This document shows, piece after piece, positions 14,440 through 59,289 of a DNA stretch of 64,000 nt. The stretch comes from Phoronis australis. Lineage: Eukaryota; Animalia; Phoronida. The stretch is from assembly GCA_002633005.1 (NCBI GenBank), contig NMRA01000564.1, forward strand, positions 151,438 through 215,437, given 5' to 3'. The position numbers were made by a program, and so were the translations under genes. Position 1 is the stretch's first letter; the number at the start of each line of letters is the position of its first letter. The notes under the pieces were generated by a model, which was not told the DNA's origin, did no database searches, and worked only from the letters and a program-made list of their open reading frames with translations.

Positions 14440-16822
14440 GGGGTATAACGTGAATAAAAAGGTTGGTTAAAATCAGAAAAAACGGGACTTACCTCGAAAA
14501 GGACGAAGTAAAGCAGGAACGAGAAGTGACAGAGCGTCGCACCCGAACGGAGTAAGGGTCAAAGGTCGAAAGGAAACGAAGAAATGCAAACAAAAAATGA
14601 AGAGAACGAACGTAGGTCTTGTAGATGACGAGGTAGGTGGCTGAATTTTCTTTGTTATTTGCAAAAGCAACTGTTTTTTTCTGAAGACGCTGTCGGATAC
14701 ATTTTTTGGGATTTTTCTGGAGAATGCATTTACGAGTGGTTTTGTTTTGTTTTTGTATTTTTGTACCAGATTTAAATAGCATAATTCATTTCGTTGTTTC
14801 AAAAAGAGTTTAATTTGAAGTTTCGCCGTTTTATACTCCAATCTCAGTTCCAGCATTTTTAATCCGGCGACTAGTAAATATTTATCATGCACGCCAATCA
14901 AAATTGGCCTTGGTACATGCAGAAGAACAATTACCACTGATAATCGAAGATTTGAAGCCACCATCTTAAAGTTTTCTTCTGCAAACGGAAGTTTATTTAC
15001 TGAATAAATAATAATACCAAAACATCAGGAAGAACTTACTCGACAGATTCGTTGCAACCCTGGATATAGACGGCGACTTTGAAGCTTCGAACAAGTTCGC
15101 GCAGCTGTATGCGACAGTTGCACAAACTCTACAATTAATTCACGTTTCGAATGAAGATTATATGTTGAAAACGTGGCCGCTGAGATTACAGCAAAGCTCG
15201 AGTAGCCAATGAGGTAACAGCGATCATCGGCACGTGCTCGAAAAATACAATTAGCAATTTCTCTTCAGCCAATGATTTGTTTTTGTTTGTAGTTTGACAC
15301 ATCCACCGTATGCCATTTTTTCGTGTTTATTTATATTTCAGCAAGTGCACTTCTTCTGTACATGCACGTTTTCTACATTTATCAGGCTACTTACCTACCA
15401 AAGTGCTGCATCCCAATGTTTCCGAGACTGAATGACGATAATCTTGTTCCAGAAATAATTCCAAACTTTTATCGGTAAATCACCAAAATTGGTCTTTCAT
15501 TTGTCCGAGTGCTGATGACGAATAACGTCATTCATCCTCGAACACATGTACCTGTTTGATGTTAGATAACGTCAATCACGGTAAGAAGTGTTCACAAGTG
15601 TTAGCCTACTTCATTTTTGTCGTTTGTTCTTCGCAATCGTTGAGCCGGCGTCAATTCCTTTGGCTCAGTCACTCAATGGGCCTACCTATGATGCACCGCC
15701 ATCTAAATAACTGCGCAGCAACAACTGCATCTGCCAAGACGCAAAGTTCAGTTGTTGGACTGCGTTAATAATTTTGTATACTCTAGAAATGACAAAAAAA
15801 TCATTCCTCATACAACGCACCCCTCATCTAGTTGAATCGGGCCTACTCAAGGTCTTCGACGCGGATCCAGGATTTGAGTTGGGGGACCCAAGCAGGGCAG
15901 AGTACGTATTAGACATTTGCATCCCCGAACTGCCAAATGGAATCTGAAAGGATTTAAGGGGGGGCATGGCCCCCTTGCCCCCTCCCTCCTCCCCTCCCCC
16001 GGAGCCACCGACTGGAATAAAAATGAAGATTGTTTTGTTATTGATGTTGTTTTAGTCATATGGGGAAGTGTTCTAAGAACTGTTACGCACCACCCCGCAC
16101 TCATTGTCGTCAGTTTCGGTTGTGGTAGCTGTTGACTGACATATTAGACAGTGTACGGTAAAATAATTTATTTCAATTAAAGAATGCGAGGGCCGGCTGT
16201 AGATCACGATCCTTTCTGCAATTGGTCAACACACTGACTTGTTTGATTGTAATTGGCGTTGTGGCCAAGGTGTGTGACAAGTTTATCGACTACGTGGCTG
16301 CTTCAGTTACAAAGTTCCCGCATTCGTAGTTCGGTAGGTTAGATGCAAGCAGGTGCACCCTACGGTTGAAAATGGGGAATACTATACTTAATAACTCTCA
16401 AAATCGGGTGAATTTAGAATACACCATCGAACTCGGAAAGTTCACTCATTCCGTTCACGTTGATAAAATTTGCACTACACTAAAGCAAATTACATGTTTA
16501 TAAAACGATGTAAATTTTAAGCGACTTCTTTCAACTATTGGCCGCTTTTATTCACCAACTGAAACAAAAACTGATTAACCCAACATTCTTTCTCCTATTC
16601 TATGACACAAGTTCCAGATAAGGAGAAAATGGGTAACCGTGAGAACAATAACAACAAAAATTCTTGAAAATGAACACAACATGTCACTTGTGGAGTGATT
16701 GACTTGTAATAAATATTCAATTCCAAGTTCACCCATACGCGATCTTGTAAGATTAAGAAAAATTCCAAGCAGGCACAGCAGAGTGATCACTTTATTCACC
16801 GCTAGATGACTCTGTTATTAAC

Positions 16823-16834
16823 ATAATGGCGGCC
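16823..16834 (+). promoter_or_regulatory. YY1-like motif near the probable FASTKD5 transcription start / non-coding first exon
   Basis: ATAATGGCGGCC resembles the YY1 consensus AANATGGCGGC. A downstream donor ctg|gtaagt (~17037) could pair with the acceptor tttcag at 18250. Confidence 0.4.
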
Positions 16835-17326
16835 CCCTTGTAGACGTACCGTGGTTGAGCGAAACTGGAGAACTATAATCTCACTCTCCGTTGTCAGAGA
16901 AACTTTTGAATTATACCGCTTACTAGCTGAAAACGTGGACTTGAACTTTAAAATGTTCATTAGGCTCATTCTCAGAAGATTTTTGGGCTAGTGAAATTCG
17001 ACAAGTCATATTTTTTCGCTATTTTCTTTGCTTCTGGTAAGTGTTATTCAAGCACAGGTACCTTTAAGTAGCTCTCTACAATATAACATAACATTTATTA
17101 TGTTATATTGTAGAGGGCTACTTAAAGGTGCCTGTGATTCAAGGGTCACAAGCTCAGGTAGGCAATTACATCGCCCTAACCGGCCAACCGAGGCGAGGGG
17201 CTACGTGTTGTCTAAAGTTCAGGCACCTGGTTACAATTAGTAATCCGAAGGTGCTCTAGTCCAAAATATGTATAAGTTTTCAGAATGGGGTGTATTTTTC
17301 ATGTTTTTTCTACATGTAATAGTACA

Positions 17327-17787
17327 TGTAGAAAATTTCAGCGTCTCCTGTGGGACTTGAACCCAGATTGCACGTGCGACAACCAAGTGTCTAAACCATT
17401 CGGCCAAGAGGCAATTGCCGCTTGGCAAGCGACTTTATCTGACGTGTCATCACAACCGAAAGTCACGTTTCACAACACTACTCCCCCTTCCACGGAACAG
17501 GCGCCCCCGCTGGCTTTTAGATCTCATCAACTCTAAAGCGTCTTGTAATTTGCTGTCACTAACGCTCTCTTTGTGCTCTGAATCCATCACTACCAGGTCA
17601 CCCCCTCTCCATCCGCCATTTCGGCCGACAATGTAGAAAATTTCAGTGTCCGGTGAGACTTGAACCCAGGTTGCACGTGCGACGTCCAAGCGTCTAAACC
17701 ATTTGGCCAGGAGGCAATTGCAAGTGGCTTATAGAGGCTTTATCTGACTGCACGTGTTGTCACGAGTGGAAGTCACATTTCACAACA
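17327..17787 (-). mobile_element. Miniature LTR retrotransposon (TRIM) with tRNA-derived LTRs (Helenus-like)
   Basis: Direct repeats at 17327-17477 and 17632-17787, each TGTAGAAAA...CACAACA. A 4-bp TSD TACA lies on both sides. The minus-strand polypurine tract GTGGAAGGGGGAGTAG abuts the 3' LTR. Each LTR holds tRNA A and B boxes. Confidence 0.85.
17342..17412 (-). pseudogene. tRNA-like sequence inside the LTR (possible GTC/Asp anticodon); second copy at ~17647-17715
   Basis: Minus strand reads gcctcttggccgaatggtttagacacttggttgtcgcacgtgcaatctgggttcaagtcccacaggagacg, with A box TGGCCGAATGG and B box GGTTCAAGTCC. The stems are imperfect. Confidence 0.7.
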
Positions 17788-18273
17788 TACACAACACTTC
17801 GGTTGTTAGTCGCAGTGATGCAGGCCTATCACCGAAAACAACCGCTTGCCGGGTACTGTCAATACACTTTGTTCGGGTTTCTGCACGTGCGGAATCAGAC
17901 CACAATTTAGCATGTCTTGACTATTGGTTACAGCCCAATATTCCAAAAACCAGTGCGATTCTTCAAGTGCCACAATGTATCTGTGGGTGTTATAGAATTT
18001 CCTCAAAAATTGCATTTTAATGGTTCATGGCTCAGGTGTGCCTTATTAGTGAGTAGACTAGTGCTCCTCCAGTAGTTATACTTATATCTCTTTGCCTTAC
18101 ACTCTTACATTTGGCCTTGTTTTCTAAATATTTGGCCAGCTCCAGAAATTCAAAACAAGCTCTTGGAAATGTGTTGGTGGGGGCTCTGTTAGAAATATCT
18201 AGCAAGTAATTTTCTCATTCAGCAATCTGATGTTTTTTGTTTACTTTCAGGATGATGGTACTGATCACTACAA

Positions 18274-21200
18274 ATGGTTAGAGTTCTTTGGAGAAGCATG
18301 TGGCTGTCTCTGACCCGGAGACATTGTCTTGCCTCCATTATGCCGTTAAAGCAATTCAGCCACAACGTGACGGGCAAATACTCTCAAATTGATACTATGT
18401 CGTCGACAAAAACTGAGACTCGAAATGAGGATATATTCTTTCATAATATTGTGAAAAGTAGAACGTCTTCACGGATCATTACTGAACTTGATTATGACAC
18501 AGAGGAATGTTTAGACAATGCAGTTAATAAATTATCTCTGGAGTCTGACTCAGGATGGTCTGATATTAAACATCGTCTTCTGTACTTATCTGAGGCGCAA
18601 CTTCTTGGTCTGATATCAAAGATTTGTTCACTACATTCGGAGTGCTTCACTACAACCTTTAGCACTGTTCAATTTGACACAATCCGTAGGCTAGTGTCCG
18701 TATGTTCTCAACATGTGCCTAAGTGGTCTGTCCCCACACTCCTTGATGTATTAGACTCCTGGTATAGCCTTGGACTGTATTTTCAACATTGGCCTGTACA
18801 GGATTTTGTTAATGTTACGTATCGTGCTATTCAAAAGATGGATCGAACATTGACATCTGATGAACTTGTCGGATTAATGTTTTACGTTAGTTTAGCACGG
18901 AAAATGCCTAGAGAGCTTCTGCATAAGATTGAGTGTGATTGGAAGTTGGTTTGCAATGATCTCAGCATGAGTGAACTATCAGTGATATGTATTGGCTTCT
19001 TTAAAACAAAGTCAAAAGTAAACTCAGTGGATCTTCTCCGCTCTCTTGCTGAAAGATTGAAGAGTGAATACAAGCAAGTCCACAGCATCGAAGCCGCAGC
19101 CTTCCTCAAATGTTTCACTAAATCAATTGGACGTATAACTGCGCGCGTACAACCCTCCTTAACAAGCAGTCTTCTTGATACCTTCGATGCTTTCTCCTCA
19201 AGATTTGACTCGTTGTCTGACACTGCTGTTGTGCATACTTTGTGGTGTTCATTCGGACTGCAGCAAAGTACAGAACAACTGTTAAGTTCGGTGGCAAAGT
19301 TCATTGCAACGCAGCAGCTGCACACATGGAGACTTAAAGACCTGTCTCGTCTTTTCTTCATACTGGCTAACTTTTATACTAGTATTGATGAATATAATCA
19401 CATTTTCACCACACTCACGGAAGAGCTTCGCAGACCCGAACGACATGTGGAGATTCTGGAACACCCGCATTGTCTGGTGACAGCTCTCATTGGATTATCC
19501 ATGGTTGAACATTTTCCCGTTGATCTGCTGAATGTTGTGTTCAGTGGAAAAGTGCTGTCCGCATCTAAAGTGGACATCAGACGAGATCTGATTCAGCTCA
19601 GAGAGAGTGTGAAACTTGAGAAACAGGACTACCAAATCCCACGCATGAGCAAAAAGTTTGAAAGGGTAAGAATTGCATTTGTTGACATGGATGTGCTGTA
19701 AGCGAAGGTTTTAAATAGTTGCAAGGAGTGGAACACTGTTTTGAGGATTTGGGTTACTGCTCCCCCTATCGGCAACTTAAATAATATTGGTGCATTAACT
19801 TTTCATACTTTTTTTAAATTTAAGTGAAAAGTATGTGTGCTGAAAAAATTGGAAGGAAAATAAACTAACCAGCTGCTTCTTGCCCAACTTATATGATCAA
19901 CCCTAAAGTGTTGAAGTGGGGTAACTTTGTCAATCTACTAGATTCTGTTTTGCGAGTTTGGCTCTTGTCTGTCTCATAATGCGCATGACCTGACAGCAAA
20001 TTTCTGTCATTTTCTGAGAAATTTAGGTCATTGTTTTGTACAAATTGCCAATACCCTCCCGAGTTTTTTTTGCCATTGTGCGGTGCCCTGCTGGATGGGT
20101 ATATCACTCATTGTTTGTTTGTGCCAATTACATTATGATCGCAATTACTCTATATTAGCTTCCACAAACACGGCGTCCAAATCTGAATAAGGACAAGTTG
20201 AGTGAGAAAGAAAGTCTACTGAAGCGCCTCCTACAGACATTGGACCCTGCAATGGTGCCATCTGTTGTCAACCTGCTTCCTTATCTTCCAACCTATGGTG
20301 AGCTGCTTACTTATGGTCTATTTTTTGTTAATTAAGAAAATTTTTATACGGAATTTTAGTTTAGGTACTGTGATGGAAGTGTTTTTGTAACTGACTATGT
20401 ATTTGATGATGTACAGCAGTGGGTGTGGGTACTTTGAATATGTTGGTCCTCTCCATCTCCTGTTTTCTATTAAACATTTTTACAGACTGCGTACCATACG
20501 CAAAACATGCATATTCACATGAAAATTCAGCGTGTAGTATGCCCATATGCATTGACTGCATAAATACATCAAGAAAAAGATGATATACATCAAGAAAAAG
20601 ATGACCCAAACTGTAACTCGTGTATACTGTAGGTTTTAATGGTAAGTGTAAAGTTGAAGTCGTGGAAGAAGATAATTCAAAAATTGTGTTTCTTTCACAA
20701 ATTTGAATTGAAAATAACTCATCTCGGTACAGTGGCACACTTCGGGTTATCAGTCATCTTTCATTGTCATTCACACAAAAATTTGCAAATCACGAGGCCA
20801 CTGTCGATTTGGTGCTCACCTGATGATTATCTTATTCTTACATTTCTTAGTTTTGCATTCATGAACTTGTATAAGTTGGAGTCACGTGTTAAGTATTATG
20901 TCAATATTTGCTCTATATTTTACTGTATTTAATCATGTGTTTTAATATGTGATTAATTTTCATGAAAGTCATTAAACTTCAAAGTTGTTTAAAAGGTAAG
21001 ACACTGGACAAATACCAAATTAACACACAATGTCAATGCGCTTCCTTTGTATTTGAATAATAAGCACAATACCTGTTCAAGGAGGTTGGTTTTAAGAGCC
21101 GTGTCTCTTCACTAAAATCTACAAATTTTCTGAGAAATTTTCAAATTTTCTGAATATTCCAAAGCAGTTTTGGTAGTACACAAGTTGATGTGCGTTTTGA

Positions 21201-24200
21201 AAATCCCCATTTCAAATAATTAATATACTTGGCTCATGTTGTTTCCTGCATTGGACAAAAGGCATCAAACCACCTACTCTCTTTTTATTCCTGGACATTG
21301 TCTTGTATCTGTTGTATTTTGATGGTTTTCTACTGTTTTGCTGTCAGAATGTGCTGATCTGTTAAATGTTTTTTTAAATTAGATGTTGTGATAGAAATTT
21401 TCAAGAAAGATAAAGCCATTGACAACAACAAAGACCTTTCCAGGACTTTGACAAGGTTACAAGATAATGTTATCAGGTGCTGTATTTGAATTGCCTCTTA
21501 TCTCTATTAAGACAATTAATTTAATAACCATGTATTGAAAACTGCTTTCCAACGGAACCTATACACAGCATTCTGTACTGTCTGCAAATGGCTTAACTTC
21601 ATTGGTAACGGTCATTTAGTACCGGACTATAGTGGTATTAAATTTACTCTTCTTCAGAATATTGATTTAGGAACTGGTGTAAAATGTATTCCATCAGCAT
21701 AACTCTGTGAAAATGCTTATTTTTCACCGAAGCAAATATGGCTACCAAAGTAAAATTTTCTTGTCGCTTTAACAAGTTCACGTGAGCGTGATCAGTTTCG
21801 CGCCATTACATCAGCCTCAGTCTTTGGATCGCATTAGCTGTGTGTTCTGTCTTGCTCTAAAAGTATCATGAGTTCCCAGAAAGTGAGGGGTGTAGATAAA
21901 TCTGTGTGGTCGAAACTACGATCCTGATACGCCATTGTAGCTTGAACAATCGTCTAGTTGTACTGATTTCAGCTTCACCTTGATACAGGTCTCATTTCAA
22001 ACTGTCAACACAGAAATTTGTGGTCTTCATCTGTTAGACCTCAAATGATAGCCGGTAATGTGGTTGGGTGGGAATGCTAACGATTTGATACAGTGTTTCA
22101 TCTTAGTTATCAAAGGAATGTTACACTGTTTCTTCATTTCGGTTTGGCCAATGGGAAACNAGCAAATATGGCTACCAAAGTAAAATTTTCTTGTCGCTTT
22201 AACAAGTTTGCGTGAGCGTGATCAGTTTCGCGCCATTACATCAGCCTCAGTCTTTGGATCGCATTAGCTGTGTGTTCTGTCTTGCTTTAGAAGTATCATG
22301 AGTTCCCAGAAAGTGAGGGGTGTAGATAAATCTGTGTGGTCGAAACTACGATCCTGATACGCCATTGTAGCTTGAACAATCGTCTAGTTGTACTGATTTC
22401 AGCTTCACCTTGATACAGGTCTCATATCAAACTGTCAACACAGAAATTTGTGGTCTTCATCTGTTAGACCTCAAATGATAGCCGGTAATGTGGTTGGGTG
22501 GGAATGCTAACGATTTGATACAGTGTTTCATCTTAGTTATCAAAGGAATGTTACACTGTTTCTTCATTTCGGTTTGGCCAATGGGAAACCAGCCCAAGAA
22601 CTTATTCGCCCCTTGCTCTTAAAATGGATTTGCATGCAAATTTTTATCCTTATTGAAGTAATTGATTGCCAAAAATTTCTCACAGAAGATCTTTTAACTT
22701 GGTTTCTAGGGTTGCTATTTTAGTACTACCTTCAAATTGTTTCTATGGTTACCGAGACACCAGTGGTGCTGTTACATACCAGCTCATGGGTATCCATGTA
22801 ATGAGAAAGAGACACCTGGAGATCAAAGGTTATGTTGTTGTACAGGTAAGCACCCTTGCATGTAGAAAGTAAGCTCCAAGCCTCTGGACATCTTTATAGT
22901 TAGGAATGCATTGCAAAGTGTGACAGGCAAAATTCATTAATTCATGTGACTTTATAATCTGACCTAAAACCCGACTTCACCACACCTTGATCCTCCTCAA
23001 TGCATTACAATTTAATGTACCATATCAAATATAATACGCTTGTTCGTGCTTGTTTGTGGATTGGTGGGAGACTTAGTGTCACTGCGTGGCCTGGTGCTCG
23101 TTTCCAAAATCTCTTGTTGTTGTGACAAGCTGGTAATTATGATGTATTTGAGTCATTAAATTCTTGGTAAAATCTCTGACACCAAATGTTAACCTTATTA
23201 ATCATTATTTGTGCATTTTCATGGATTGATGGAGGAATTCTGCCACTGTGTCAGTTGTTTTGAATTTTTTTGTGCTTGCAAGCTGTTGATTTTTATCTAC
23301 CTGTTATTCTGGAGAATAAAGATCTGTACGCATTTAAGTAATTAAATAATTGATAGCATTACTGTAAAATTTCACCTAATTGTCACAAAAATAAATGCAA
23401 TAAAATACCTCTTTTTTGTTTTTCAAGGTCATCTAACATTGCTGTGATTGCTCAAAATTTTTCATTAGACATCGTCGGCTGGTGACTGTGGTGCAAAACT
23501 TGAGTATGATGTATGGAAAATTGAAAAATTGATAAAATAAAATTTCGCATGTTTTGTCCTAAGTTCGTGAGATTCAGGGCTTGGAATTTTCCGCGGAAAC
23601 GCGGATTTCCGCTTTTTTCAAATGTGCTGTCCGCTTTTTTTATAATATTTCCGCGTAAAAAAAATCGGATTTGATATAAAATATCTGCGGCAAATTCCTT
23701 ACTTACCGCGGCGTCGCAGACGACATTCACCTCGAAAAGCGGAAGTTGCTCTTTATGTTTCGGAGGAACGTAAATTGTCAACATTGCCGGGGCACCTGGG
23801 ACAGCGTGGTGGGATTTTCAATGGCGTCTCGTGTTATTGTTAAGCGCGGCAACAAATACTACCGCTCTGCAGCCAAAAATGTGTGGGGTTGGGAGTGCGG
23901 ACGGGCGAGCCAAGAGCTAAAAGGACGCAGACGCAAGGTACTGGTGGTGGAAACATTTTTTTTTAGACCTCCCGATTTTTGTCGAGGAAAGGTTCACATT
24001 GACCATTTCAAGGCATGATTTGGGCCGTAAAAGTTTCCGCGTTTTTTGTCACTGGTCATTCCAAGCCCTGGAGATTTTAGTGTAGATCTACTTACATATA
24101 TTTATATACTAACATGTATTTTAGTACATATCTACTTAAAAATATATTTATATACTAACATGTATTTTAGTATAGATCTACTTAAATACATTTATATACT

Positions 24201-27892: not shown

Positions 27893-47063
<19,171 letters not shown>

Positions 47064-47230: not shown

Positions 47231-48167
47231 CAGTGGCGGATCTAGGATATCACAAGGGGGGGGCCCAACATTTTGTCCGGCTGTAAAAATTTGCGCAAAC
47301 TGAACCACGATTGTAGATGCGCATAGCACCAAATGGGGGGAAATTTTTCTGTTTTGACCTCTAAAAATCAAGTATTTTCCTTGATTCCTGAAGTATTAAC
47401 CAAGAAAAAAAGGCAAAAAAAAACACGGAGAACGTGTCAAACAGGAAAATCTGCAAATACCAAAGACTCGAACTCACGACCTTGCGCATAGAGCGCGCGT
47501 GCGTTACCACTACACCACCACGATTTAGCTACTAATCTCATACTAAGAGAAGTACTTGTTTATGGTCCACAGCGTTTGCGCGCGAAACCTACTTCTTTTT
47601 GTATTGCTTATAACACGTTTTGTGCCATCGATTCTTAACAAATTTGTCGTATTTAAAAGTCTTAAAATGCCCAAAAGACCAAATCCGTTATTCGTGTTGG
47701 CAATAATGACCGGGGATTGCTTTGGAAATCGTCTTAACATAAGGTTTGACAAAGAGAGTATTGCGAGTTTCTGAGCTTCTGTTTTTTCATCGTCACTCAG
47801 GTTCCATTTTCTTTAAAAATGAAGTAAATTTTCTTCATTGCACAGTGGAGCAGACGACGGAAACTGAGTCGTAGTGCGCAGCGCATCTGCCGGTCGCTTG
47901 GGATATCGCGGCAGAGCCTATACTTAGCCATAGTTCCGTTACGAATGCGCCGTGTTCCGAATTTGACACTTGAAATTGGATTTGAGCCCCCCCCCCCCAA
48001 CACTAAAACTGCACACATTTAAATCTTTTTTCATCCGTATACTTTTAATTACCGGGGTTAATTAATAAACTCAACATTTATTTCCCTACGCTCTTACTGT
48101 TTTATTTTTTTGCGGCAGCCAAAGGGGGGGCCCGGGCCCCCTGGGACCCCCCCTAAATCCGCCTATG
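47231..48167 (+). mobile_element. ~937-bp MITE with 5-bp TSD and internal tRNA-like segment (copy A)
   Basis: tatat|CAGTGGCGGATCTAGG ... CCTAAATCCGCCTATG|tatat. A/B boxes lie on the minus strand at ~47465-47522. Confidence 0.85.
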
Positions 48168-48633
48168 TATATATATGTACTTATATTTATCTCATCGGAT
48201 TAGAGACCGTGGAGGGCTTGCTAACGTCTTTAATATTAGTCACGACATCTTTTCACATAAGTGAAAATGTGTTATTTTTATTGTTAAAACAATAACCACA
48301 ACACCTTCAACGTGAAGTCACCCGTCCCTTGAAAATGACAAAGTCTCTGCTGCTCAGGCCCAGTCATTTTCGGTCGGGTTAATCGATCGGATGATCTGTC
48401 CGTTTAGTTCCCGTAATCGTGATTGCTCGGTTGCCCCATTCTGCTGTGCTAGAACTTGGAATATCACTTGATCTCAGAATCACGCGTGCCTGAACGATGC
48501 CTAATAAAATTCTAATTTTGACTGACTCGCGTTTTGAGTAAGCAAAGCTCGGTCGCCGCGGAAATGGGATACGGGCCTAGTCTAACAGAGACCAGCGAAA
48601 ACTATAAGTACAGTCGTGACACTATTATAAATG

Positions 48634-49979
48634 AGAATCGTACGCGCTCGAGCATCGCATCTTACCATAGGCGGATTTAGGAGGGGCCCAGGCCCCCCGG
48701 GCCCTAATTGGCTGCTGCAAAAAACTTGATAAAACAGCAAGAGCGTAGGGAAATGTTGAGTTTATTAATTAACCCCGGTAATTAAAATTATACGGATGAA
48801 ACAAGATTTAAATGTGTGCAGTTTTAGTGTTTGGGGGGGGGCTCAGGTCCAATTTCAAGGGTCAAATTCGGAACACGGCGCAATCGTAACGGAACTATGG
48901 CTAAGTATAGGCTCTCCCGCGATACCTCAGGCGACCGGCAGTGGCGCTGGGCACTACGACTTCGTTTGTGTCGTCTGCTCCACTGTGCAATGAAGAAAAT
49001 TTCTTCATTTTTTAAAGGAAATGGAATCTTTGTGATGATTAAAAAAACAGAGGCTGATGGTAAGATGTCAATTTTAATCGAAGCCTTAGTGAATCACTCA
49101 GAAACTCATAATTCTCTCTTTGTCAAACCTTAACTTAAGACGATTTCCAAAGCAATCGCGTCATTATTGCCAACACAAAAAACGGATTTAGTGTTTTGGG
49201 CAATTGAAGACTATTTTAAATACAACAAATTTGTTACGAACTGATTGCACAAAGTATAAAACATGTAATAAGCATTACAAAATGAAGGTTTCGCGCGCTA
49301 ACGCTGTGGACCATAAACAAGTAGGTCTCTTACTATCAAATTGGGAGTTAAATCGTGGTGGTGCAGTGGTGAAGCACGCGCGCCTTATCCGCCAGGTCGT
49401 GAGTTCGAGTCATTTGGCGCTTGCGGCTTTTCCTGTTTGACACTTTTCTGGGTTTTTTGCCTTTTTTTCTTGAATAATACTTCAGAAATCAAGAAAAATG
49501 CTTGATTTTTAGAGGAAAAAACAGAAACCCCCCTCCCGACTTCCCCCCATTCGACCGGTGCTATGCGCATCTACAATCGTGCTTTGAGCAAACGTTTACT
49601 GACAAAATGTTGCCCCCCCCCCCTAGATCCGCCACTGCTTACGCACGAACCATCTACGAAACTATGAATCATGCATACGAACTCAAGAATCACGCTTATG
49701 AACAAAAATCATGCGCACGAACCACTCCGATACCTCGGAACAAAAACCGCCGGTTTGTCGGAAACCGTCGCACGAGCTATGAGGCTACTACGCACAAGCA
49801 TCAAGCGATAACCGTTTGTTCATGCGTGTGGCTCGATGCTCGTGTGTATGATTTTGATTTTTGTGGTTTGTGGGCACGATTTTTTGTTCGTATGACGTGA
49901 TTCGTTGAGTTCGTATGCATGATGAGTACGTATAAGTAGGTGGTCGTCGAGCGTAAGATGCGATGCTCGTGCCGATTCT
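48634..49979. mobile_element. Older palindromic MITE whose left arm is interrupted by copy B
   Basis: Removing copy B rejoins agaatcg...cgagcatcgcatcttac|gcacga, the reverse complement of tcgagcgtaagatgcgatgctcgtgccgattct at ~49947-49979. The inner arms are atgcatacgaactcaa and ttgagttcgtatgcat. Confidence 0.7.
48666..49637 (-). mobile_element. ~972-bp MITE with 5-bp TSD and internal tRNA-like segment (copy B, inverted relative to A)
   Basis: cttac|CATAGGCGGATTTAGG ... CCTAGATCCGCCACTG|cttac. It is a colinear reverse complement of copy A. The A/B boxes lie at ~49353-49411. Confidence 0.85.
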
Positions 49980-52326: not shown

Positions 52327-55300
52327 ATGCGTGGTCGCACGATGGTGTTGCGGGTATTCGCTATTGCGGTAAGTTTTTACACATACAATTTGTACAACCT
52401 TGAAACACGATAGGAAATGGGCTTTATCATTCATTGTTGTGAAGTACTTGATGTGTGAATAATAAAATTAATAACTTCTGTAAATTCCGAGTAATTCCCG
52501 GTTAAACTGACTACACAAACACAAATCAAACATTTTATTCTCATGAAATCGGTCTGATAATTCCTTACGGTGGTAGGGTCCTATTTCTGATATGGCGTTG
52601 CCAAAAAGAACAAAGGAACCATGAGCGAGTCAAAAAACTCGTTCAGATAAGTGGACTCGAAATTGGCGCAAGATCGCATAAGCAAATATTCAGGGGCTAT
52701 GAATTGGTTATACAGATACCTCTAAATTTACTGTGTACAAAACATTCCATTCAGTTTTCCTTGTGTTGTGGGACGTAGTCAAGTTCCAGCCTGCGAAAGA
52801 ATACCTGGGTCTGTACGTATATGCAGAAATCAGTTCACGATGATAAAAGTGGATACGTGTTTGTCATTTAACCAAAGAACTCACCTGCTTGAAACCAGGG
52901 AAGGTTCACAGTTATTTTTTTCATGTCTCAGGCGTGTGTGGTGCTCTCATCGCCAACGCCAATGAACAGAGCGGCATTTGAAGACGCGATGTTGGAGCCT
53001 GAGCCATACACAGATAAGACGATTGATCAATTAATTATGAGCACCTATGTGAGCATGGACGGTAGGTACTTTTATCGACATTTAATTTTGTATTTCCCTT
53101 ACAGTCCATTCAAGTACATATATGGCAGTCAACAAAAATGTTTCATTGTCGAAAACAAATTTTGTATGCTGGTGTATGATATAAAGAGGTGCTACTGATT
53201 GCGGTGTCATTTTACTGCAACTTTTGTGGTGAATAGAATATGGCATACCACAGACCTTCATTTCAATGGGCATACCTTGTGATGATACCTGGGTGTTTAT
53301 TTGTGAGGTGATGGTGATGACAGTGTAAAAGGCAGTGATTCGTCCTAATCGTTATTTTATTACCGCTATCGGCTCAAAAGTATATACATATCGTAAAAGC
53401 TTCAAGATGTCCACTTTTTAAGGCAACATATTGGAATCAAAGTTTAGTTCTGTAGCAGTGTAATATGTGAAAAATATTCAACCTCATCGATAAACTGTGC
53501 CCATAGAAGGATTTAGGGGGGCAGGGGGTCCGCCACCCCCCCCCCCTGGCTGGCGCAAGCAAAATTAACCAGTAAAAAAGCGTGAAGCGTGAGGAAATAC
53601 TGAGTTCAGGGGCTAGGACCGGTAGCGGACGAGGGGGGAAAACACGTTCCCGTTTTTTTTTTATTTAGTCCACCGATATATTTTCTGAACAGAAGGTATA
53701 CATCCTTGGCCCCCGCACCTTCCGGGCCTGCGTACACGTGCAATCGCGCTTTGCTTAATTCCATCCCCGAGGATGTTGGGCCCTCCCTCATGGTCCTAGA
53801 TCCGCCCCTCCCATGTCCGGGCGGGCTTCACCACCTACACCTAGCTCTTCAAGTTGTGTCCCAGTTTCCCAATTGTCACAAAAAATCTCATTTCCCATCT
53901 CCGGACCGATTCCCCTATTGGTTTCGCCGTTGACGTAAGATATGTTTGAGAAAGCGGGCACACCACCCACCCCCCCCCCCTCCCCCTGCCCTCGGATGCC
54001 TACGGTTCCGCTTGCCTGAAATGTTTTAGTTTGGAAAATCAAAACTTTAAATGTTGTGCTTGCAGATGTGAGGTCCGCCTCTGTAATGAACAACGGAACT
54101 GTCCTTGCCGAGTTAGATATGATGTTGACAGAGGATCAGTTCCGAAATATGTACAGACAAGGCGACTGGGAGGCTGCTTACCCTATCGAGTATGTAACCG
54201 TCAAGGCCTTTGGTAAACTGCCTCACACCACACTTTTTATGTACAACCACTCATCAATTCACAGCAGCATGAGCGTCAAGCGTAAATTCGTTATTATTTT
54301 GCATAGGACCTAACTGTGCAGTCTTGTTTCCATATTGCTGAAGAGCTCGACATAAAGAGGTCAACCTGAAGTAGTCTGAAAACCAGAATGTTTTTTTACA
54401 AAATGCATGTATTGTTTTCATTAAAACTTGTTTGACGTCAATAACTGGTGATTTCCAGCGAACACATGTGGTGCAAACAACTCGCTATTTAACTCTTTGC
54501 AGAGACGCTAAGCGCCGGCGACGTAATATCCGGAATACTCGTCTGAGATGGACCAATGGCGTGGTTCCTTACGAATTGAGCCCTGGAAGTTTTAGTAAGT
54601 TGGCTAAAAGCAACTATTATAGTGGGCAAGACCATGTTGGTAGTTTTTGGAGACTAAATTGTTGCAGTAGGTGGAAATCTTGACCTCACTCAAGAATTGG
54701 GAAGTTGCTTTGAAATTCAGTTGGTGATTAGGCTAAAGTGCGAACCCCGGTGAGCTAAAATGCAAACCAGTTTCAACTGAAATTGCTCAGATGGACGCGT
54801 TTAACTGATATTTACATGCTGATCTAACTGCGAAAAAAAACTTTTGTTTTGCGATGAATATATTATTTGGATCGGTAAAGCTACACCAATTGTCTTCGAA
54901 AATAAAACCATAAAACCCTTCAGCAGCGTATTGCGTTTAATTTAACGTTTGAATAAAGTTCAGTTTCATTACTCATCAGTCAATCGGTTTTTTGCTGATA
55001 GATGTCTTCTGAACCCCCATTGCACAGTTCAAAATTACCAATAATTTCGCAATTCTAAATACTATGCACAAATTTCTCTATGAACGGACCACAAATTGTT
55101 ATACGTGGTCGTAGAAGAATTTTGCAGAAAGTCGAACGCGAATAGAAACGACTTTTATATGTATTTTACAGGCACTTACGATCAAGGTCTAATCCGCCAG
55201 GCGGTGTCTGAGTGGAACGCTGCAACTTGTCTCAATATCCGGCCGGCCACCTATTCTGACCGAAACAAAATCCGGATGCAAAATGGTCAAGGATGTAACT

Positions 55301-58300
55301 CAGCCCTAGGGATGGTGGGAGGAACACAAATCTTGAATCTACAGGCTCCCGGTTGCCGTTACGTAAGTTACTAATTTCCAAGATCACTGCTAAGGCGATA
55401 GTGGTCAACAAAGTTATTTCTGGTTGAGCAAATGAAACTTTCTAGATAAGTAACAACCAGGCAGAAAATTTTCTACTGTTCTGCGGCAAAAAAAAATGTA
55501 AAGGCAACAGTCTAAGTCTGTAAAAGGTCATTGGTTTGAAGTCCTCGTGTCGGCTTCTATAACATTTAGAAAAGTGTGCGTTTCTTGAACATTTATAACA
55601 AGGCGACTTAATTAAATATAACTAACTGTACTCAGTTTAGTTCAGTTTATAGCAGCCGGCATAGTTTCATCACTGGCGGATCTTGGATGACAACGGGGGG
55701 GCAACTACAATTTTCGAAAGAAAATGTCTCCTTTTAACCCCCGAAAATGGGATGCCGGTGGCTTTTTATCTCTTTTTTGGTCGTGACCGTAGAGGGGAGG
55801 GAGCATCCCGGTACCTGCCTAAATTTGCATAGTATGTGTTTAGAAATATACGAAGAATATGTCACATGACAGGTTATATAACGTCTCACGTTTTCTTTTC
55901 AGAAAGGGCTCTACTTACACGAATTGGGTCACGCGATAGGATTAGTCCACGAGCATCAACTTCCGGCACGTGATGACTACATTTACATCCAGTACCAGAA
56001 TGTTTTCCAAGGATGGGGAATATGGTTCAATAAATACAAAGATGCAGAAATAAACACACATGGTGTTGACTATGATCTCGGATCAGTGATGCACTACGGT
56101 GTCACGGTAAGCAATCAGGGTAGGCTTCCACCAATCGGACAGTCTCTCAACTTATGATAAGTTTTCTTACGAGTCTTGAAATCGGGTTGCTAGCTGTTTC
56201 GTTTTGTTAGACCGCGGATTTAGCATTTCGTAAACTCTTAGATGAAAGTTCGTCTGCTTTTTGATTTGAAGGCATTCTCAAAAGATGGGACGTCAAAGAC
56301 CATACGAACGCATGATCCTTCGAAAGAACACCTCATTGGACGAGTGTACGAGAAAGGGCTTACGTTCGCCGACATTAAAATTGTCAACTTGATGTACAAC
56401 TGCGCAGGTACTGCAAGTGAAATGAACTAAGACTACATTAAAATGACTGGCATGGGCGGCGTAGCACTGAAATAAGTGGGGGGGGGGGCTATNCCACCGC
56501 CGCTATGGTGCGCCGCCCATGAATGATTGAGGAATTACATGCAGCCCCATAAATTTTTGAATGTGTAATGATAACAACTTTACTGATTCTACGATCGTGC
56601 ACTTAGTAGAGTTTAGGACTGATTCAGTTTTAATGCAAAAACTAGGCATAATTTTATATCAGACGACCGGGAATGTTGTTTTTTGTTATAAACTAAGTGT
56701 TGCTGTTTGCATTTATATTCATGTTCAGCTCATTGTCGAGATGGAAAAAGGTGCATAAAGGGAGGATTCAAAGACAAGCGATGCAACTGTGTTTGTCCCC
56801 CCGGAGTCACCAATTGCGTGGAAGGAGGGGTAGCCCCCAGAACAACTCCAGCACCAACGACGTCTACGGGTGGCGGCGGTGGTGGCAGCGGAGGTGAGAT
56901 GTGGCCAGTTTACATTCAGGGACAAATAATTCCTCCACAAGTGCCAATGTAAGAGCTCGTTGTCTCACAACAATCGCTCTCCGCGCGGGTAAAAAGTACT
57001 GCAGATTGTTATCAACGAACTGATTTTGGGCGCCCTGATAGCGGTGGAACAAGATGGGAAAATGTGAGGTCTTGCAAGGTTTTTGGATGACAGTGACCGA
57101 TTGGGTTACGGCAAAACAGGGTTTTGTCTTGATTTAAGCTTGGCTTATGTCATCTTCGGGAAAAGGTAGCCAGACATGTAATCAATCTTTCCATTTGCTT
57201 AGGAAAAAAGATATATACGGTACATAGCTAGGTTGAATTCCAGACCCTCTTGTTTCCAACAGTTGAAAAACGAAATTCTCGGATATTACAACATAGTAAG
57301 GTAATTTACCATAAGAGCTTGAATTTTGAACAATTTAGTAGTAGGCGAATTCCTTTTGAAGGACTTCTTGTTTGACATTGTAATTCATTTGGTTATGTAC
57401 CATTCCAGTGTGAATGGGTGTGAAAGTTTTGTTATAAAGTGCGTTTATGCATTTACCCCATGCTTTGATTAACATGACTTAATTAAGGCATATTTTATGA
57501 TTAACGTGTACGTGTTTATCACTGTAATTATATAATGTCATGGCTGCCAATGCAATAAAGGTATTTGTTCGAAAAATAGGAAAACTTGTGAAAAACTTAC
57601 TCCTAAGTTGGGCTGAGCGGGATAATGGTCATGCAGTATTACAAAGCATGTTTCAAATTCTATCAGAGCTGTAGATTGTCCCAGTCGGACACTTTGTCCC
57701 GGTAATAGCGATTGTTTTTCATTGTCTCTTCCGTTAGGGTGTACCAACAACCATGGTAGGTGTCCAGTCTGGGCCAACGACGGGTGGTGTACTCGCGGCT
57801 GTACTGAGTGGATGAATGAGAATTGCAAAAAATCTTGTAATAAGTGTACCGAAACGCCCCCGCCACCGCAACGGACTACGCCACTGCTGTCGCCGCCGCC
57901 ACCGCAACGGACTACGCCACTGCTGTCGCCGCCGCCACCCCCAGGATCCACAACGACCACACTCGCCACTCCGCCACCTCCTGCGTCATCGACTACTGTA
58001 GCGCCGCAACCAACGACTGACGGGGGAGAAACAGGCGAAGGTAGAAATGACCTTATTAAAAGTCCAAAGGACTTCGTTTATATTAGCGCTCTTCTGACAG
58101 TTTCAACGAAGTTAACTTGAATACCGCCTCGTGTAGATTCTGCAGTCTATTTCTATATGGGCCGATGAGAGAACCTTTTCCCGGTGTTTCATTCTTAGAC
58201 AAATCACGTTCATGTAATTTGTCGCCGTATCTTCCTTTAACACGCTAATCAAAACGAGCAACAAGATCTCTGCTTAAAATTCTCGATATACAAGTTCATT

Positions 58301-59289
58301 ATGACAAAATGCGTCATTTAAAGGTGCATTTCGCCCCGTTCAGCTTAGGAAAAACTGAAAATCTATTAAAGTGTTTTACTTTCATAAATCGGTATCGTAA
58401 TACTACTTATCATAATAGGATTCTATTTGTTACTAACAAAAACATCGGAACTATCAGAGATTCGAGAATGAAACACTTTAGCGTTTATAGGCGTTGGCCA
58501 AAACTAAAATTGCGAATTCGAAAATGGCGCGTGTAGTCATTGCTTGAGTTGTCGGCTCAAATCAAGAACGGGTGGTCAATGTATTGTTTTTAAACCTCTA
58601 ACGCTTCCGTTAAGAAATCGCGTGCTTGAATTCGCTCGGGTGCACGATCATAATTTATATGAGACTTTAATTTTCGTCCCTGCTTTCGAAAATCTTTTGT
58701 AAACAATAAGCCTCGTTCTTTTTCAGATCCAGGCTGTTACAGGGAAGGACCGCAGAGAGATCTGCCTCTGAGAGCTTACGGAGACCAACAAAACACGCGT
58801 GAACGGTGTCGCGAAGCATGCCGAGAACGGAACTATAAATATGCTGGGGTGCAAAATGGTGTAGGATGCTGGTGTGGCAATAGTTACGGCAGATACGGCA
58901 AGGCTCCCGAGGAGCAATGCAGTTATTCATGTTCCGGTAACGCTGCGCAGACATGCGGCGGCTGGTTTAAGAACTATATTATGAAGGTTATTCCTGATGA
59001 ACGAATTAACTTGCCAGGATGTTTCCGAGAGTCACATGACAGAGAATTGTATCATAGAGCTTACAGCGATGACAACAACACGCGAGACCGTTGCAAGACG
59101 GTATGTCGAGAGGGTGGTTATAAATATGCGGGTGTACAAAATGGCGTAGGATGCTGGTGCGGAAACGAGGCGGGCGTTCATGGAGCAGCACAAGCGTCAG
59201 AATGTAGCACGCCGTGCTCGGGAAATCGGGACGAGACATGCGGTGGATGGTACATAAATTACGTAATGGAATCTGGCTATGGGTCTTAG
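52327..59289 (+). CDS. Secreted astacin (M12A) zinc metalloprotease with EGF-like, ShK, Pro/Thr linker and two WSC domains (exons 52327-52368, 52932-53061, 54066-54189, 54503-54594, 55172-55362, 55903-56106, 56272-56407, 56729-56893, 57738-58040, 58727-59289)
   Basis: Signal peptide, pro-region ELDMMLT and basic site KRRRR. The catalytic domain has WTNGVVPY, zinc motif HELGHAIGLVHEH and Met-turn SVMHY. ShK reads C-x6-CPVWANDGWC...WMNENCKKSCNKC. Each WSC repeat has GC[YF]RE...YKYAGVQNGVGCWCGN...C...CSGN...TCGG. Exon phases are consistent. Confidence 0.92.
57860..57940 (+). repeat. Coding tandem repeat, 2 x 36 bp (PPPQRTTPLLSP)
   Basis: ccgccaccgcaacggactacgccactgctgtcgccg is duplicated exactly. 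Confidence 0.9.

What the first reader, a model, noticed from the sequence alone, without database searches (positions are those of the whole stretch)
17327..17787. Complete miniature LTR retrotransposon whose LTRs are built around a tRNA gene (Pol III-driven TRIM)
Seen in the sequence: two ~151-156-bp direct repeats with TG...CA ends, a perfect 4-bp TSD (TACA at 17323-17326 and 17788-17791), and a ~154-bp interior with no recognisable protein domain. A minus-strand PPT (GGAAGGGGGAGTAG) directly precedes the 3' LTR. Each LTR contains a tRNA-like sequence with A box TGGCCGAATGG and B box GGTTCAAGTC in the element's sense orientation. Known: plant Cassandra TRIMs carry 5S rDNA in their LTRs. From memory, a rare TRIM group named Helenus carries tRNA-like LTRs and makes 4-bp TSDs in animals. 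Inference: this is an LTR element that uses an internal Pol III promoter in SINE fashion and is mobilised in trans by a Gypsy-type partner. It may be a new family in this lineage. It sits antisense in the probable 5'UTR intron of FASTKD5.
Basis: partly seen in the sequence, partly recalled or inferred. Interest (0 to 1): 0.85.

Follow-up and report, generated by a model that had tools for sequence, protein, structure and literature searches.

The report
tRNA-bearing miniature LTR retrotransposon (Helenus type)
This is an old copy of a small, gene-less, repeated jumping element that carries a decayed tRNA look-alike, likely its promoter, in each of its two terminal repeats; it is a new family of the Helenus kind described in 2024, not a new kind of element.

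Summary
A 461-bp minus-strand element (17327-17787) has two TG...CA LTRs (156 and 151 nt, 126 of 148 aligned letters identical), a TACA target-site duplication, a polypurine tract, and box A/box B motifs in each LTR. Public reads show a dispersed family. LTR and interior depth are far above single-copy, 11 contigs end exactly at the LTR terminus with unlike flanks, and a related empty site holds one TACA. This copy is old (K2P 0.17) and its primer-binding site is decayed. Another copy (2 RNA reads) has the tRNA-Lys-type site common in animal Helenus. It meets the Helenus definition (Kojima 2024). None of the published consensus sequences I read or motif-searched matches it, so it is a new family. 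Pol III transcription and a Gypsy helper are inferred, not shown. The only sense-strand T4 runs lie at the LTR ends, which predicts a short ~79-nt RNA and a ~384-nt read-through template. The host phylum is unresolved. This scan has noted such elements on other DNA: 45 notes in at least 14 genomes match the words, none by sequence. Verdict: new member of a known kind, low to moderate interest.

The parts
17788..17791 (.). Target-site duplication TACA at the element's 5' side
   Evidence: Sequence; a related empty site carries one TACA
17632..17787 (-). 5' LTR, 156 nt, TG...CA
   Evidence: 126 of 148 aligned letters identical to the 3' LTR
17699..17709 (-). Box A of the 5' LTR (TGGCCAAATGG)
   Evidence: fits TRGCY..YGG of PMC10886601
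17657..17666 (-). Box B of the 5' LTR (GGTTCAAGTC), starting 43 nt after box A starts
17637..17640 (-). T4 run at the end of the 5' LTR; predicted leaky Pol III terminator
   Evidence: One of only two T4 runs on the element's sense strand; role inferred
17613..17631 (-). Position of the primer-binding site, decayed in this copy (starts TTGTCGGCCG)
   Evidence: Another copy reads TTGGCGCCAACTAA here, a tRNA-Lys-type site (table 5c, 2 reads; Fig. S2)
17478..17631 (-). Non-coding interior, 154 nt, repeated in the genome
   Evidence: depth; no Pfam hit; no Rfam hit above 12.4 bits
17478..17491 (-). Polypurine tract GGAAGGGGGAGTAG abutting the 3' LTR
   Evidence: 13 of 14 purines; GGGGAGTAG ends the interior of 4 published bivalve Helenus families
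17327..17477 (-). 3' LTR, 151 nt, TG...CA
   Evidence: 11 contigs end at 17327 with unlike flanks
17342..17412 (-). Degenerate full-length tRNA-like unit in the 3' LTR (box A 17406-17396, box B 17363-17354), with D and anticodon stems broken
   Evidence: Rfam RF00005 positions 1-71, 12.9 bits, E 4; ARAGORN negative
17332..17335 (-). T4 run at the end of the 3' LTR; predicted end of the unit-length RNA
   Evidence: role inferred
17323..17326 (.). Target-site duplication TACA at the element's 3' side
   Evidence: Sequence
18274..19701 (+). Host context: first coding exon of a FASTKD5-like gene; the element lies upstream and antisense, in a probable 5'UTR intron
   Evidence: Pfam FAST_1 E 5e-6, just under its curated cut-off; named relatives; stranded RNA cover starting near 18251

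Best explanation
It is an old, dispersed-family copy of a non-coding miniature LTR retrotransposon of the animal Helenus type, whose tRNA-like LTR sequence likely serves as an internal RNA polymerase III promoter and which was likely copied and inserted by the proteins of an autonomous Gypsy element. Shown: two LTRs, PPT, 4-bp TSD, box A/B in both LTRs, a repeated family with shared termini, a related empty site, and a tRNA-Lys-type primer site in another copy. Inferred cycle: (1) Pol III would start near 17715 in the 5' LTR. (2) Most transcripts would stop at the T4 at 17640-17637 (about 79 nt). (3) Some would read through and stop at the T4 of the 3' LTR, giving an RNA of about 384 nt with about 81 nt repeated at both ends. 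(4) A Gypsy particle would package it, prime minus-strand synthesis with a host tRNA at the PBS and plus-strand synthesis at the PPT, rebuild two identical LTRs (U3 about 65, R about 81, U5 about 5 nt) and integrate with a 4-bp duplication. This copy has since decayed and is probably inert. My odds: Helenus-type TRIM about 0.9, Pol III promoter about 0.75, the leaky-T4 detail about 0.5.
For: Anatomy. Family, from runs X1-X4 (one sample, possibly the source of the window): summed depth 5006 and 1592 over the LTR bins and 518 over the interior, against 42 for the single-copy exon. 11 contigs end at 17327 with flanks of agreement 0.42. RNA loose ends of diverged copies keep CTACA at one end and TGTTGTGAA at the other (table 7). 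Empty site: a contig joins 17307 to 17799 with one TACA, 19 of 22 letters matching the expected empty site; two more contigs skip the element (17308-17811, 17318-17831). One origin for both LTRs: of 24 listed variant rows in the LTRs, 13 have other copies matching the partner LTR, and 5 distinct columns have both LTRs sharing a letter that other copies lack. Helenus signatures: box A/B, PPT ending GGGGAGTAG as in 4 bivalve families, LTR end TTTTCTACA as in Helenus-1_PiIm, PBS TTGGCGCCAACTAA in another copy against TTGGCGCCCAACTAA in bivalve families, sizes within the bivalve/nemertean range. T4 terminates 75% of transcripts in a human U6 cassette (PMC5725217). Kojima infers Gypsy helpers for animal Helenus from PBS and TSD length.
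Against: This copy's PBS lacks the TGG start and pairs poorly: by eye, 7 of the first 11 letters match the tRNA-Lys-CTT end and 12 of 18 match the tRNA-Ile-AAT end printed in Fig. S2. The family PBS rests on 2 reads of one copy. The tRNA structure score is below any threshold. RNA reads give no sign of a Pol III unit: family reads lie on both strands (86:54 and 85:49 at 17362-17397), 84% and 89% run on into unlike sequence, and no start or end pile-up is seen. These standard libraries could miss an 80-nt RNA. No Gypsy domain was found in 119 frames of the window, and no genome was available to look further. The empty-site contigs have depths of 39-60, not the half depth (about 20) of this haplotype, so they are probably paralogues of a low-copy flank repeat, not an allele. 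Pol III activity is unvalidated for Helenus itself.
Confidence: 0.82

Rival explanations
1. It is a TRIM with the same anatomy, but it is transcribed by Pol II from U3 like ordinary TRIMs; the tRNA-like stretch is a passenger left by an old SINE insertion, or acts as a TFIIIC-bound insulator or packaging signal.
For: A T4 run lies between box B and the PBS, so Pol III would mostly stop before the interior. No Pol III start pile-up in two RNA runs. Helenus promoters are untested.
Against: Both boxes are kept in both LTRs at tRNA spacing (43 nt start to start) while the cloverleaf stems have decayed, as expected if only promoter function is selected. The interior has no T4 run on the sense strand. 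The lower divergence of the tRNA part (9 of 86 against 13 of 62 in U3) is not significant (p 0.10).
Confidence: 0.12
2. It is a retrozyme-like element: the LTR holds an unrecognised self-cleaving RNA that cuts read-through transcripts to unit length, with the tRNA-like part as promoter.
For: Earlier unchecked notes of this scan report tRNA-plus-twister LTR elements in other animal genomes. The T4 problem needs some solution.
Against: No hammerhead, twister or other ribozyme family appears in Rfam scans of the region at E up to 1 or of each LTR and the interior at E up to 10. Only 25-27 nt lie between box B and the LTR end. This copy is old, so a decayed ribozyme could be missed.
Confidence: 0.03
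3. It is two tRNA-derived SINE copies in tandem, or a local duplication, with chance TG...CA ends and a chance 4-bp match.
For: The LTR-like unit is about ten times deeper than the interior, as a SINE would be. The two repeats are only 85% identical. A 4-bp match alone is weak (about 0.005).
Against: The tRNA-like unit sits 71-78 nt inside the repeat, not at its head. The PPT abuts the 3' repeat, the interior is itself repeated, and another copy has LTR + PBS + interior in the same order. Termini are precise in 11 contigs. An empty site has one TACA. Both repeats share 5 private letters. Excess LTR depth is also what solo LTRs give (Table S3).
Confidence: 0.03

Closest known systems
Animal Helenus TRIMs (TRIMp3), Kojima 2024, PMC10886601; nearest in layout are the bivalve and nemertean families. 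I read main-text parts 1-5 of 6 and further passages, supplement parts 1, 5, 6, 7, 10 and 11 of 11, and searched the whole supplement for six motifs.
   Same: Size (461 bp; LTR 151-156, interior 154), tRNA-like unit in the 3' half of each LTR with TRGCY..YGG and GGTTC, 4-bp TSD, PPT ending GGGGAGTAG (4 bivalve families), LTR end TTTTCTACA (Helenus-1_PiIm), tRNA-Lys-type PBS followed by AACTAA in another copy, LTR excess over interiors, non-functional cloverleaf.
   Different: No published consensus that I read matches. 4 of 6 motifs (TGTTGTGAAA, AATGGTTTAGAC, GCACGTGC, GCAATTGC) occur 0 times in the supplement, though line breaks could hide a match. Box A is TGGCCRAATGG, whereas most animal LTRs I read have TAGCTCA or TGGCTCA (by eye), which hints at a different source tRNA or SINE. 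This copy is old and its PBS is decayed. The host phylum is unresolved.
Cassandra TRIMs of plants (passages of PMC7215508; as summarised in PMC10886601)
   Same: Non-coding TRIM with a Pol III gene fragment in each LTR; reported to be transcribed from the 5' LTR into the 3' LTR, with promoter and terminator in the LTR.
   Different: Cassandra carries 5S rDNA (box A and box C) and is found in plants. This element carries tRNA-type boxes A and B, has no 5S match, and its predicted terminal repeat is about 81 nt against 18 nt.
Ajax TRIMs of nemerteans (PMC10886601)
   Same: Animal TRIM of about 420-435 bp with a Pol III promoter fragment in LTRs of 154-163 nt.
   Different: Ajax has a 5S-derived promoter, 5-bp TSDs and a tRNA-Leu PBS.
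tRNA-derived SINEs (SINE2), as described in the introduction of PMC10886601
   Same: Internal tRNA-derived box A/box B promoter in a short, non-autonomous retroelement.
   Different: SINEs have one 5' tRNA head and a LINE-like tail and use target-primed reverse transcription. This element has two LTRs, PBS position, PPT and precise TG...CA ends.

Membership tests
Helenus (animal) | Short non-coding element (TRIM; 311-1263 bp in the paper) | tested here: met
   461 bp; no Pfam family in overlapping frames
Helenus (animal) | Two LTRs at the ends | tested here: met
   156 and 151 nt, TG...CA, 126 of 148 identical; precise terminus in 11 contigs
Helenus (animal) | [quoted passage not shown] | tested here: met
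   Both LTRs; 2 matches in the window against 0.005 per shuffle. Full-length but weak Rfam tRNA alignment on the 3' LTR only
Helenus (animal) | PBS complementary to a tRNA 3' end just inside the 5' LTR: this copy | tested here: inconclusive
   No TGG start; by eye 7 of 11 to Lys-CTT and 12 of 18 to Ile-AAT as printed in Fig. S2, in a copy whose LTRs have diverged by K2P 0.17
Helenus (animal) | PBS complementary to a tRNA 3' end: the family | tested here: met
   Another copy joins the LTR end to TTGGCGCCAACTAA and then the same interior (2 reads of run X5); Lys-CTT type of Fig. S2 with one C fewer. Thin support: one copy
Helenus (animal) | PPT before the 3' LTR | tested here: met
   17491-17478, 13 of 14 purines; same ending in 4 bivalve families
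Helenus (animal) | 4-bp TSD | tested here: met
   TACA on both sides; one TACA in a related empty site. TSDs of other copies could not be read
Helenus (animal) | Interspersed multi-copy family | tested here: met
   Depth about 10x (interior) to 40-120x (LTR bins) over single-copy; unlike flanks at the terminus. Summed contig depth is not a copy number
Helenus (animal) | Autonomous Gypsy partner with the same PBS (inferred in the paper) | not testable with these tools
   No genome held; no RT or integrase domain in 119 frames of the window
TRIMp3 | Transcription by RNA polymerase III | tested here: inconclusive
   Two RNA runs show family reads on both strands and no start pile-up; such libraries can miss short Pol III RNAs
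Cassandra / Ajax | 5S rRNA-derived sequence in the LTR | tested here: not met
   No 5S match at E up to 10 in either LTR
SINE2 | Single tRNA head at the 5' end and a LINE-like tail, no LTR pair or PPT | tested here: not met
   tRNA-like unit starts 71-78 nt inside each repeat; PPT and paired repeats present
Retrozyme-like LTR elements | Self-cleaving ribozyme in each LTR | tested here: not met
   No ribozyme family; a decayed or undescribed fold could be missed

The most novel reading that the evidence does not exclude
This is an independently born Helenus lineage (a different source tRNA, box A TGGCCRAATGG) in an animal phylum outside the six on record. Its layout exposes a rule for tRNA-driven LTR elements that I did not find discussed: a minimal T4 terminator at the LTR end makes one promoter yield both an abundant ~80-nt tRNA-like small RNA and, by leaky read-through, the unit-length template whose whole tRNA-like part serves as the R region.
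Probability: 0.25. Interest if true: 0.5.

Novelty: new member of a known kind. Interest (0 to 1): 0.25.

Why it matters
Helenus elements rest on one bioinformatic paper; my searches found it and three papers or reports that mention it. A further animal family with a different box A supports the proposal that tRNA-promoter TRIMs arose several times by SINE capture. Its simple layout, with T4 runs only at the LTR ends, gives a concrete test of how Pol III can make a full-length LTR template. The Kojima paper uses 'terminator' once, for Cassandra. Such families also inflate tRNA gene predictions and seed Pol III boxes in introns, here upstream of a FASTKD5-like gene. This particular copy is old and probably inert, so it is a marker of the family and not the best test object.

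Tried and rejected
No whole genome is held, so copies, solo LTRs, tandem arrays and other TSDs could not be listed. No second copy lies in the window. Pattern scans found 0 matches in viral contigs and in metagenome contigs. No RNA holder was listed for 15000-21000; that blank is no evidence on expression. The scan's notes hold no look-alike sequence, nothing near this place, and no Helenus note among this genome's matches for 'LTR retrotransposon' or 'tRNA'. Functional tRNA: rejected. Source tRNA: not assigned, since the anticodon region varies between copies. Ribozyme in the LTR: not found. Tandem arrays: the 'goes back' joints can be LTR-to-LTR mapping mosaics, so I do not claim arrays. Chimeric origin of the two LTRs: U3 is not significantly more diverged (p 0.10). 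Allelic presence/absence: not claimed, since the empty-site contigs have paralogue-like depth. Host phylum: KIF11 exons were compared with 61 of the 120 listed hits, a 60-row quick tree (2 rows dropped, careful search unfinished) and a 23-row tree. Placement was unresolved. AU tests did not reject grouping with molluscs, nemerteans, Owenia or Lingula (p 0.34-0.61), although the 23-row tree put the row outside a protostome set at 95 SH-aLRT. A stalk-exon search found nothing. The ESM atlas gave FASTK-family hits only. tRNAscan-SE, Repbase and Dfam are not available. Supplement parts 2-4, 8 and 9 (by the order of the file, mostly fungal and wasp consensus sequences, the plant and Ajax ones, and Fig. 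S1) were covered only by the motif search, which bears on the claim that the family is new.

Full report
Observation. The element lies on the minus strand at 17787-17327. It has a 156-nt 5' LTR, a 154-nt interior and a 151-nt 3' LTR. The LTRs share 126 of 148 aligned letters, with 22 mismatches and 11 gap columns, and have identical first 10 and last 14 letters, TG...CA. TACA flanks both ends. The PPT GGAAGGGGGAGTAG abuts the 3' LTR. Each LTR has box A and box B starting 43 nt apart. A box A/B pattern, written after I had seen the sequence, matches only these two places in the window, against 0.005 matches per window in 200 shuffles. As a structure the tRNA-likeness is weak: ARAGORN finds none, and Rfam aligns all 71 model positions to 17412-17342 at only 12.9 bits, E 4, with D and anticodon stems broken, and finds nothing in the 5' LTR. 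No other copy lies in the window, and the overlapping frames have no Pfam family.

It is a dispersed family. No genome was available, so I laid public runs of the same species label. Runs X1-X4 are one sample, which may be the source of the window and so is not independent. In X1, summed contig depth is 5006 and 1592 over the LTR bins and 518 over the interior, against 42 over the single-copy exon; in finer bins the interior is 291-659. These sums are not copy numbers. Eleven contigs end exactly at 17327 and run on into unlike sequence (agreement 0.42, median 251 nt); some may be interiors of other subfamilies and not flanks. RNA reads from diverged copies keep CTACA at one end and TGTTGTGAA at the other (where 18 of 181 loose-end rows were shown). 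One contig joins 17307 to 17799 with a single TACA; 19 of its 22 bridging letters match the expected empty site. Two more contigs skip the element. Their depths (39-60) exceed this haplotype's depth (19-23), and the flanks are themselves repeated, so these are probably paralogous empty sites and not an allele. They still show that the element was inserted with a 4-bp duplication.

The two LTRs come from one insertion, and it is old. One search showed 40 of 121 variant rows. I used the 24 that fall in the LTRs, leaving out four rows from one contig, eleven interior rows and one flank row. In 13 rows other copies carry the partner LTR's letter, as expected for private changes after insertion. 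In 7 rows (5 distinct columns) both LTRs share a letter that other copies lack, as expected if both were copied from one template. Four rows fit neither. K2P distance is 0.17 (15 transitions, 7 transversions), and 10 of the 22 differences are CpG-type.

Primer-binding site. This copy's interior starts TTGTCGGCCG, without the TGG that pairs with a tRNA's CCA. By eye it matches 7 of 11 letters of the Lys-CTT site and 12 of 18 of the Ile-AAT site printed in Fig. S2. Two reads in run X5 show another copy in which the LTR end is followed by TTGGCGCCAACTAA and then rejoins the interior at 17616 (table 5c). That is the tRNA-Lys type that dominates the bivalve list and heads the wasp list, where several families read TTGGCGCCCAACTAA. 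The support is one copy and two reads.

RNA. About 18-19% of two runs of one study were read (280 and 258 reads laid). The FASTK exon is covered on one strand only (about 20:0 and 9:0), starting in the bin that holds the AG at 18249-18250, with no cover over 17974-18225. This fits an intron; the upstream exon was outside the stretch laid. Family reads are mostly under 90% alike, lie on both strands (86:54 and 85:49, element sense first), run on into unlike sequence in 84% and 89% of cases, and show no start or end pile-up. This fits copies inside host transcripts and neither shows nor excludes a Pol III unit. The gene is FASTKD5-like: FAST_1 at E 5e-6, and 3 of the 10 top clusters are named FASTKD5-like, 1 holds a RAP-domain protein and 6 are unnamed.

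Mechanism. The inferred cycle is that of an LTR element driven by an internal Pol III promoter. The only T4 runs on the sense strand are at the ends of the two LTRs. T4 stops 75% of transcripts in a human U6 cassette (PMC5725217, abstract and one results section read); other hosts and contexts may differ. A start at the tRNA-like 5' end (17715) would give about 79 nt at the first T4 and about 384 nt at the second, with R about 81, U5 about 5 and U3 about 65 nt. That RNA has all that reverse transcription needs to rebuild both LTRs. Gypsy proteins are the likely helper, following Kojima's inference from PBS and TSD length. None of these steps is shown here, and no helper lies in the window. The main rival is a Pol II TRIM with a passenger tRNA-like stretch. 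A ribozyme was not found.

Comparison. Kojima 2024 (PMC10886601; main-text parts 1-5 of 6, passages, supplement parts 1, 5, 6, 7, 10 and 11 of 11) defines Helenus as TRIMs with tRNA-derived LTR sequence, PBS and PPT, with 4-bp TSDs in animals, in six animal phyla. Every testable feature is met, except that this copy's own PBS is inconclusive. A motif search of the whole supplement found GGGGAGTAG 5 times (4 at the ends of bivalve interiors) and TTTTCTACA twice (once as an LTR end), and four LTR motifs 0 times. Most animal consensus LTRs I read have box A TAGCTCA or TGGCTCA, not TGGCCRA (by eye). So this is a new family, perhaps from another SINE capture. Cassandra (passages of PMC7215508) and Ajax carry 5S sequence, which is absent here. 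Searches for Helenus and TRIMp3 gave the original paper and three that mention it; I read passages of two and saw the third only as a listing. The scan's unchecked notes hold 45 findings with these words in at least 14 genomes, none similar in sequence.

Host. The window is from an animal (KIF11, FASTKD5-like, astacin, VWD, WSC and ShK domains). KIF11 trees left the phylum unresolved, so a new phylum record is possible but not shown.

Verdict. A real, old copy of a new Helenus family: new member of a known kind, interest 0.25. The part worth testing is the predicted short and read-through Pol III products.

Noticed in passing
window 17306-17335: A perfect 13-bp inverted repeat with a 4-nt loop spans the left junction: the flank holds a reversed copy of the LTR's last 9 letters plus the TSD. 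It is one of three such hairpin sites in the window; the 9-mer occurs 7 times in 64 kb. The paralogous empty site differs inside one arm. Chance or later quasi-palindrome correction.
   Followed up: partly
window 17047-17142 and 17126-17228: A 45-bp, 91% inverted repeat overlaps a high-copy short repeat (summed depth about 7000 at 17072-17205) with ends AGGTGCCTG...CAGGCACCT after a TTAA. It looks like a MITE; 'Kolobok-like' is recalled, not tested. The miRNA hits are below threshold and reflect the hairpin.
   Followed up: partly
window 16402-16803: Two further high-copy repeats upstream (summed depth 1518 and 6564), so the region before the FASTKD5-like gene is dense in small repeats.
   Followed up: no
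window 17229-17326 and 17788-17900: The DNA into which the element inserted is itself a low-copy repeat: about four contigs differ from the window on each side.
   Followed up: partly
window 18252-18281: An out-of-frame upstream ATG ATG right after the acceptor opens a 9-codon frame that overlaps the FASTKD5-like start codon at 18274, a possible overlapping uORF.
   Followed up: no
window 29294-45828, minus strand: Kinesin-5 (KIF11) gene in many exons, converging on the FASTKD5-like gene.
   Followed up: yes
window 55084-59286, plus strand: Exons with astacin, ShK and two WSC domains, probably one secreted metalloprotease gene.
   Followed up: no
window 47231-49637 and 21731-22593: An inverted repeat of about 1 kb at 80% identity, and a 433-bp tandem duplication at 98.6% identity that could be real or an assembly artefact.
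   Followed up: no
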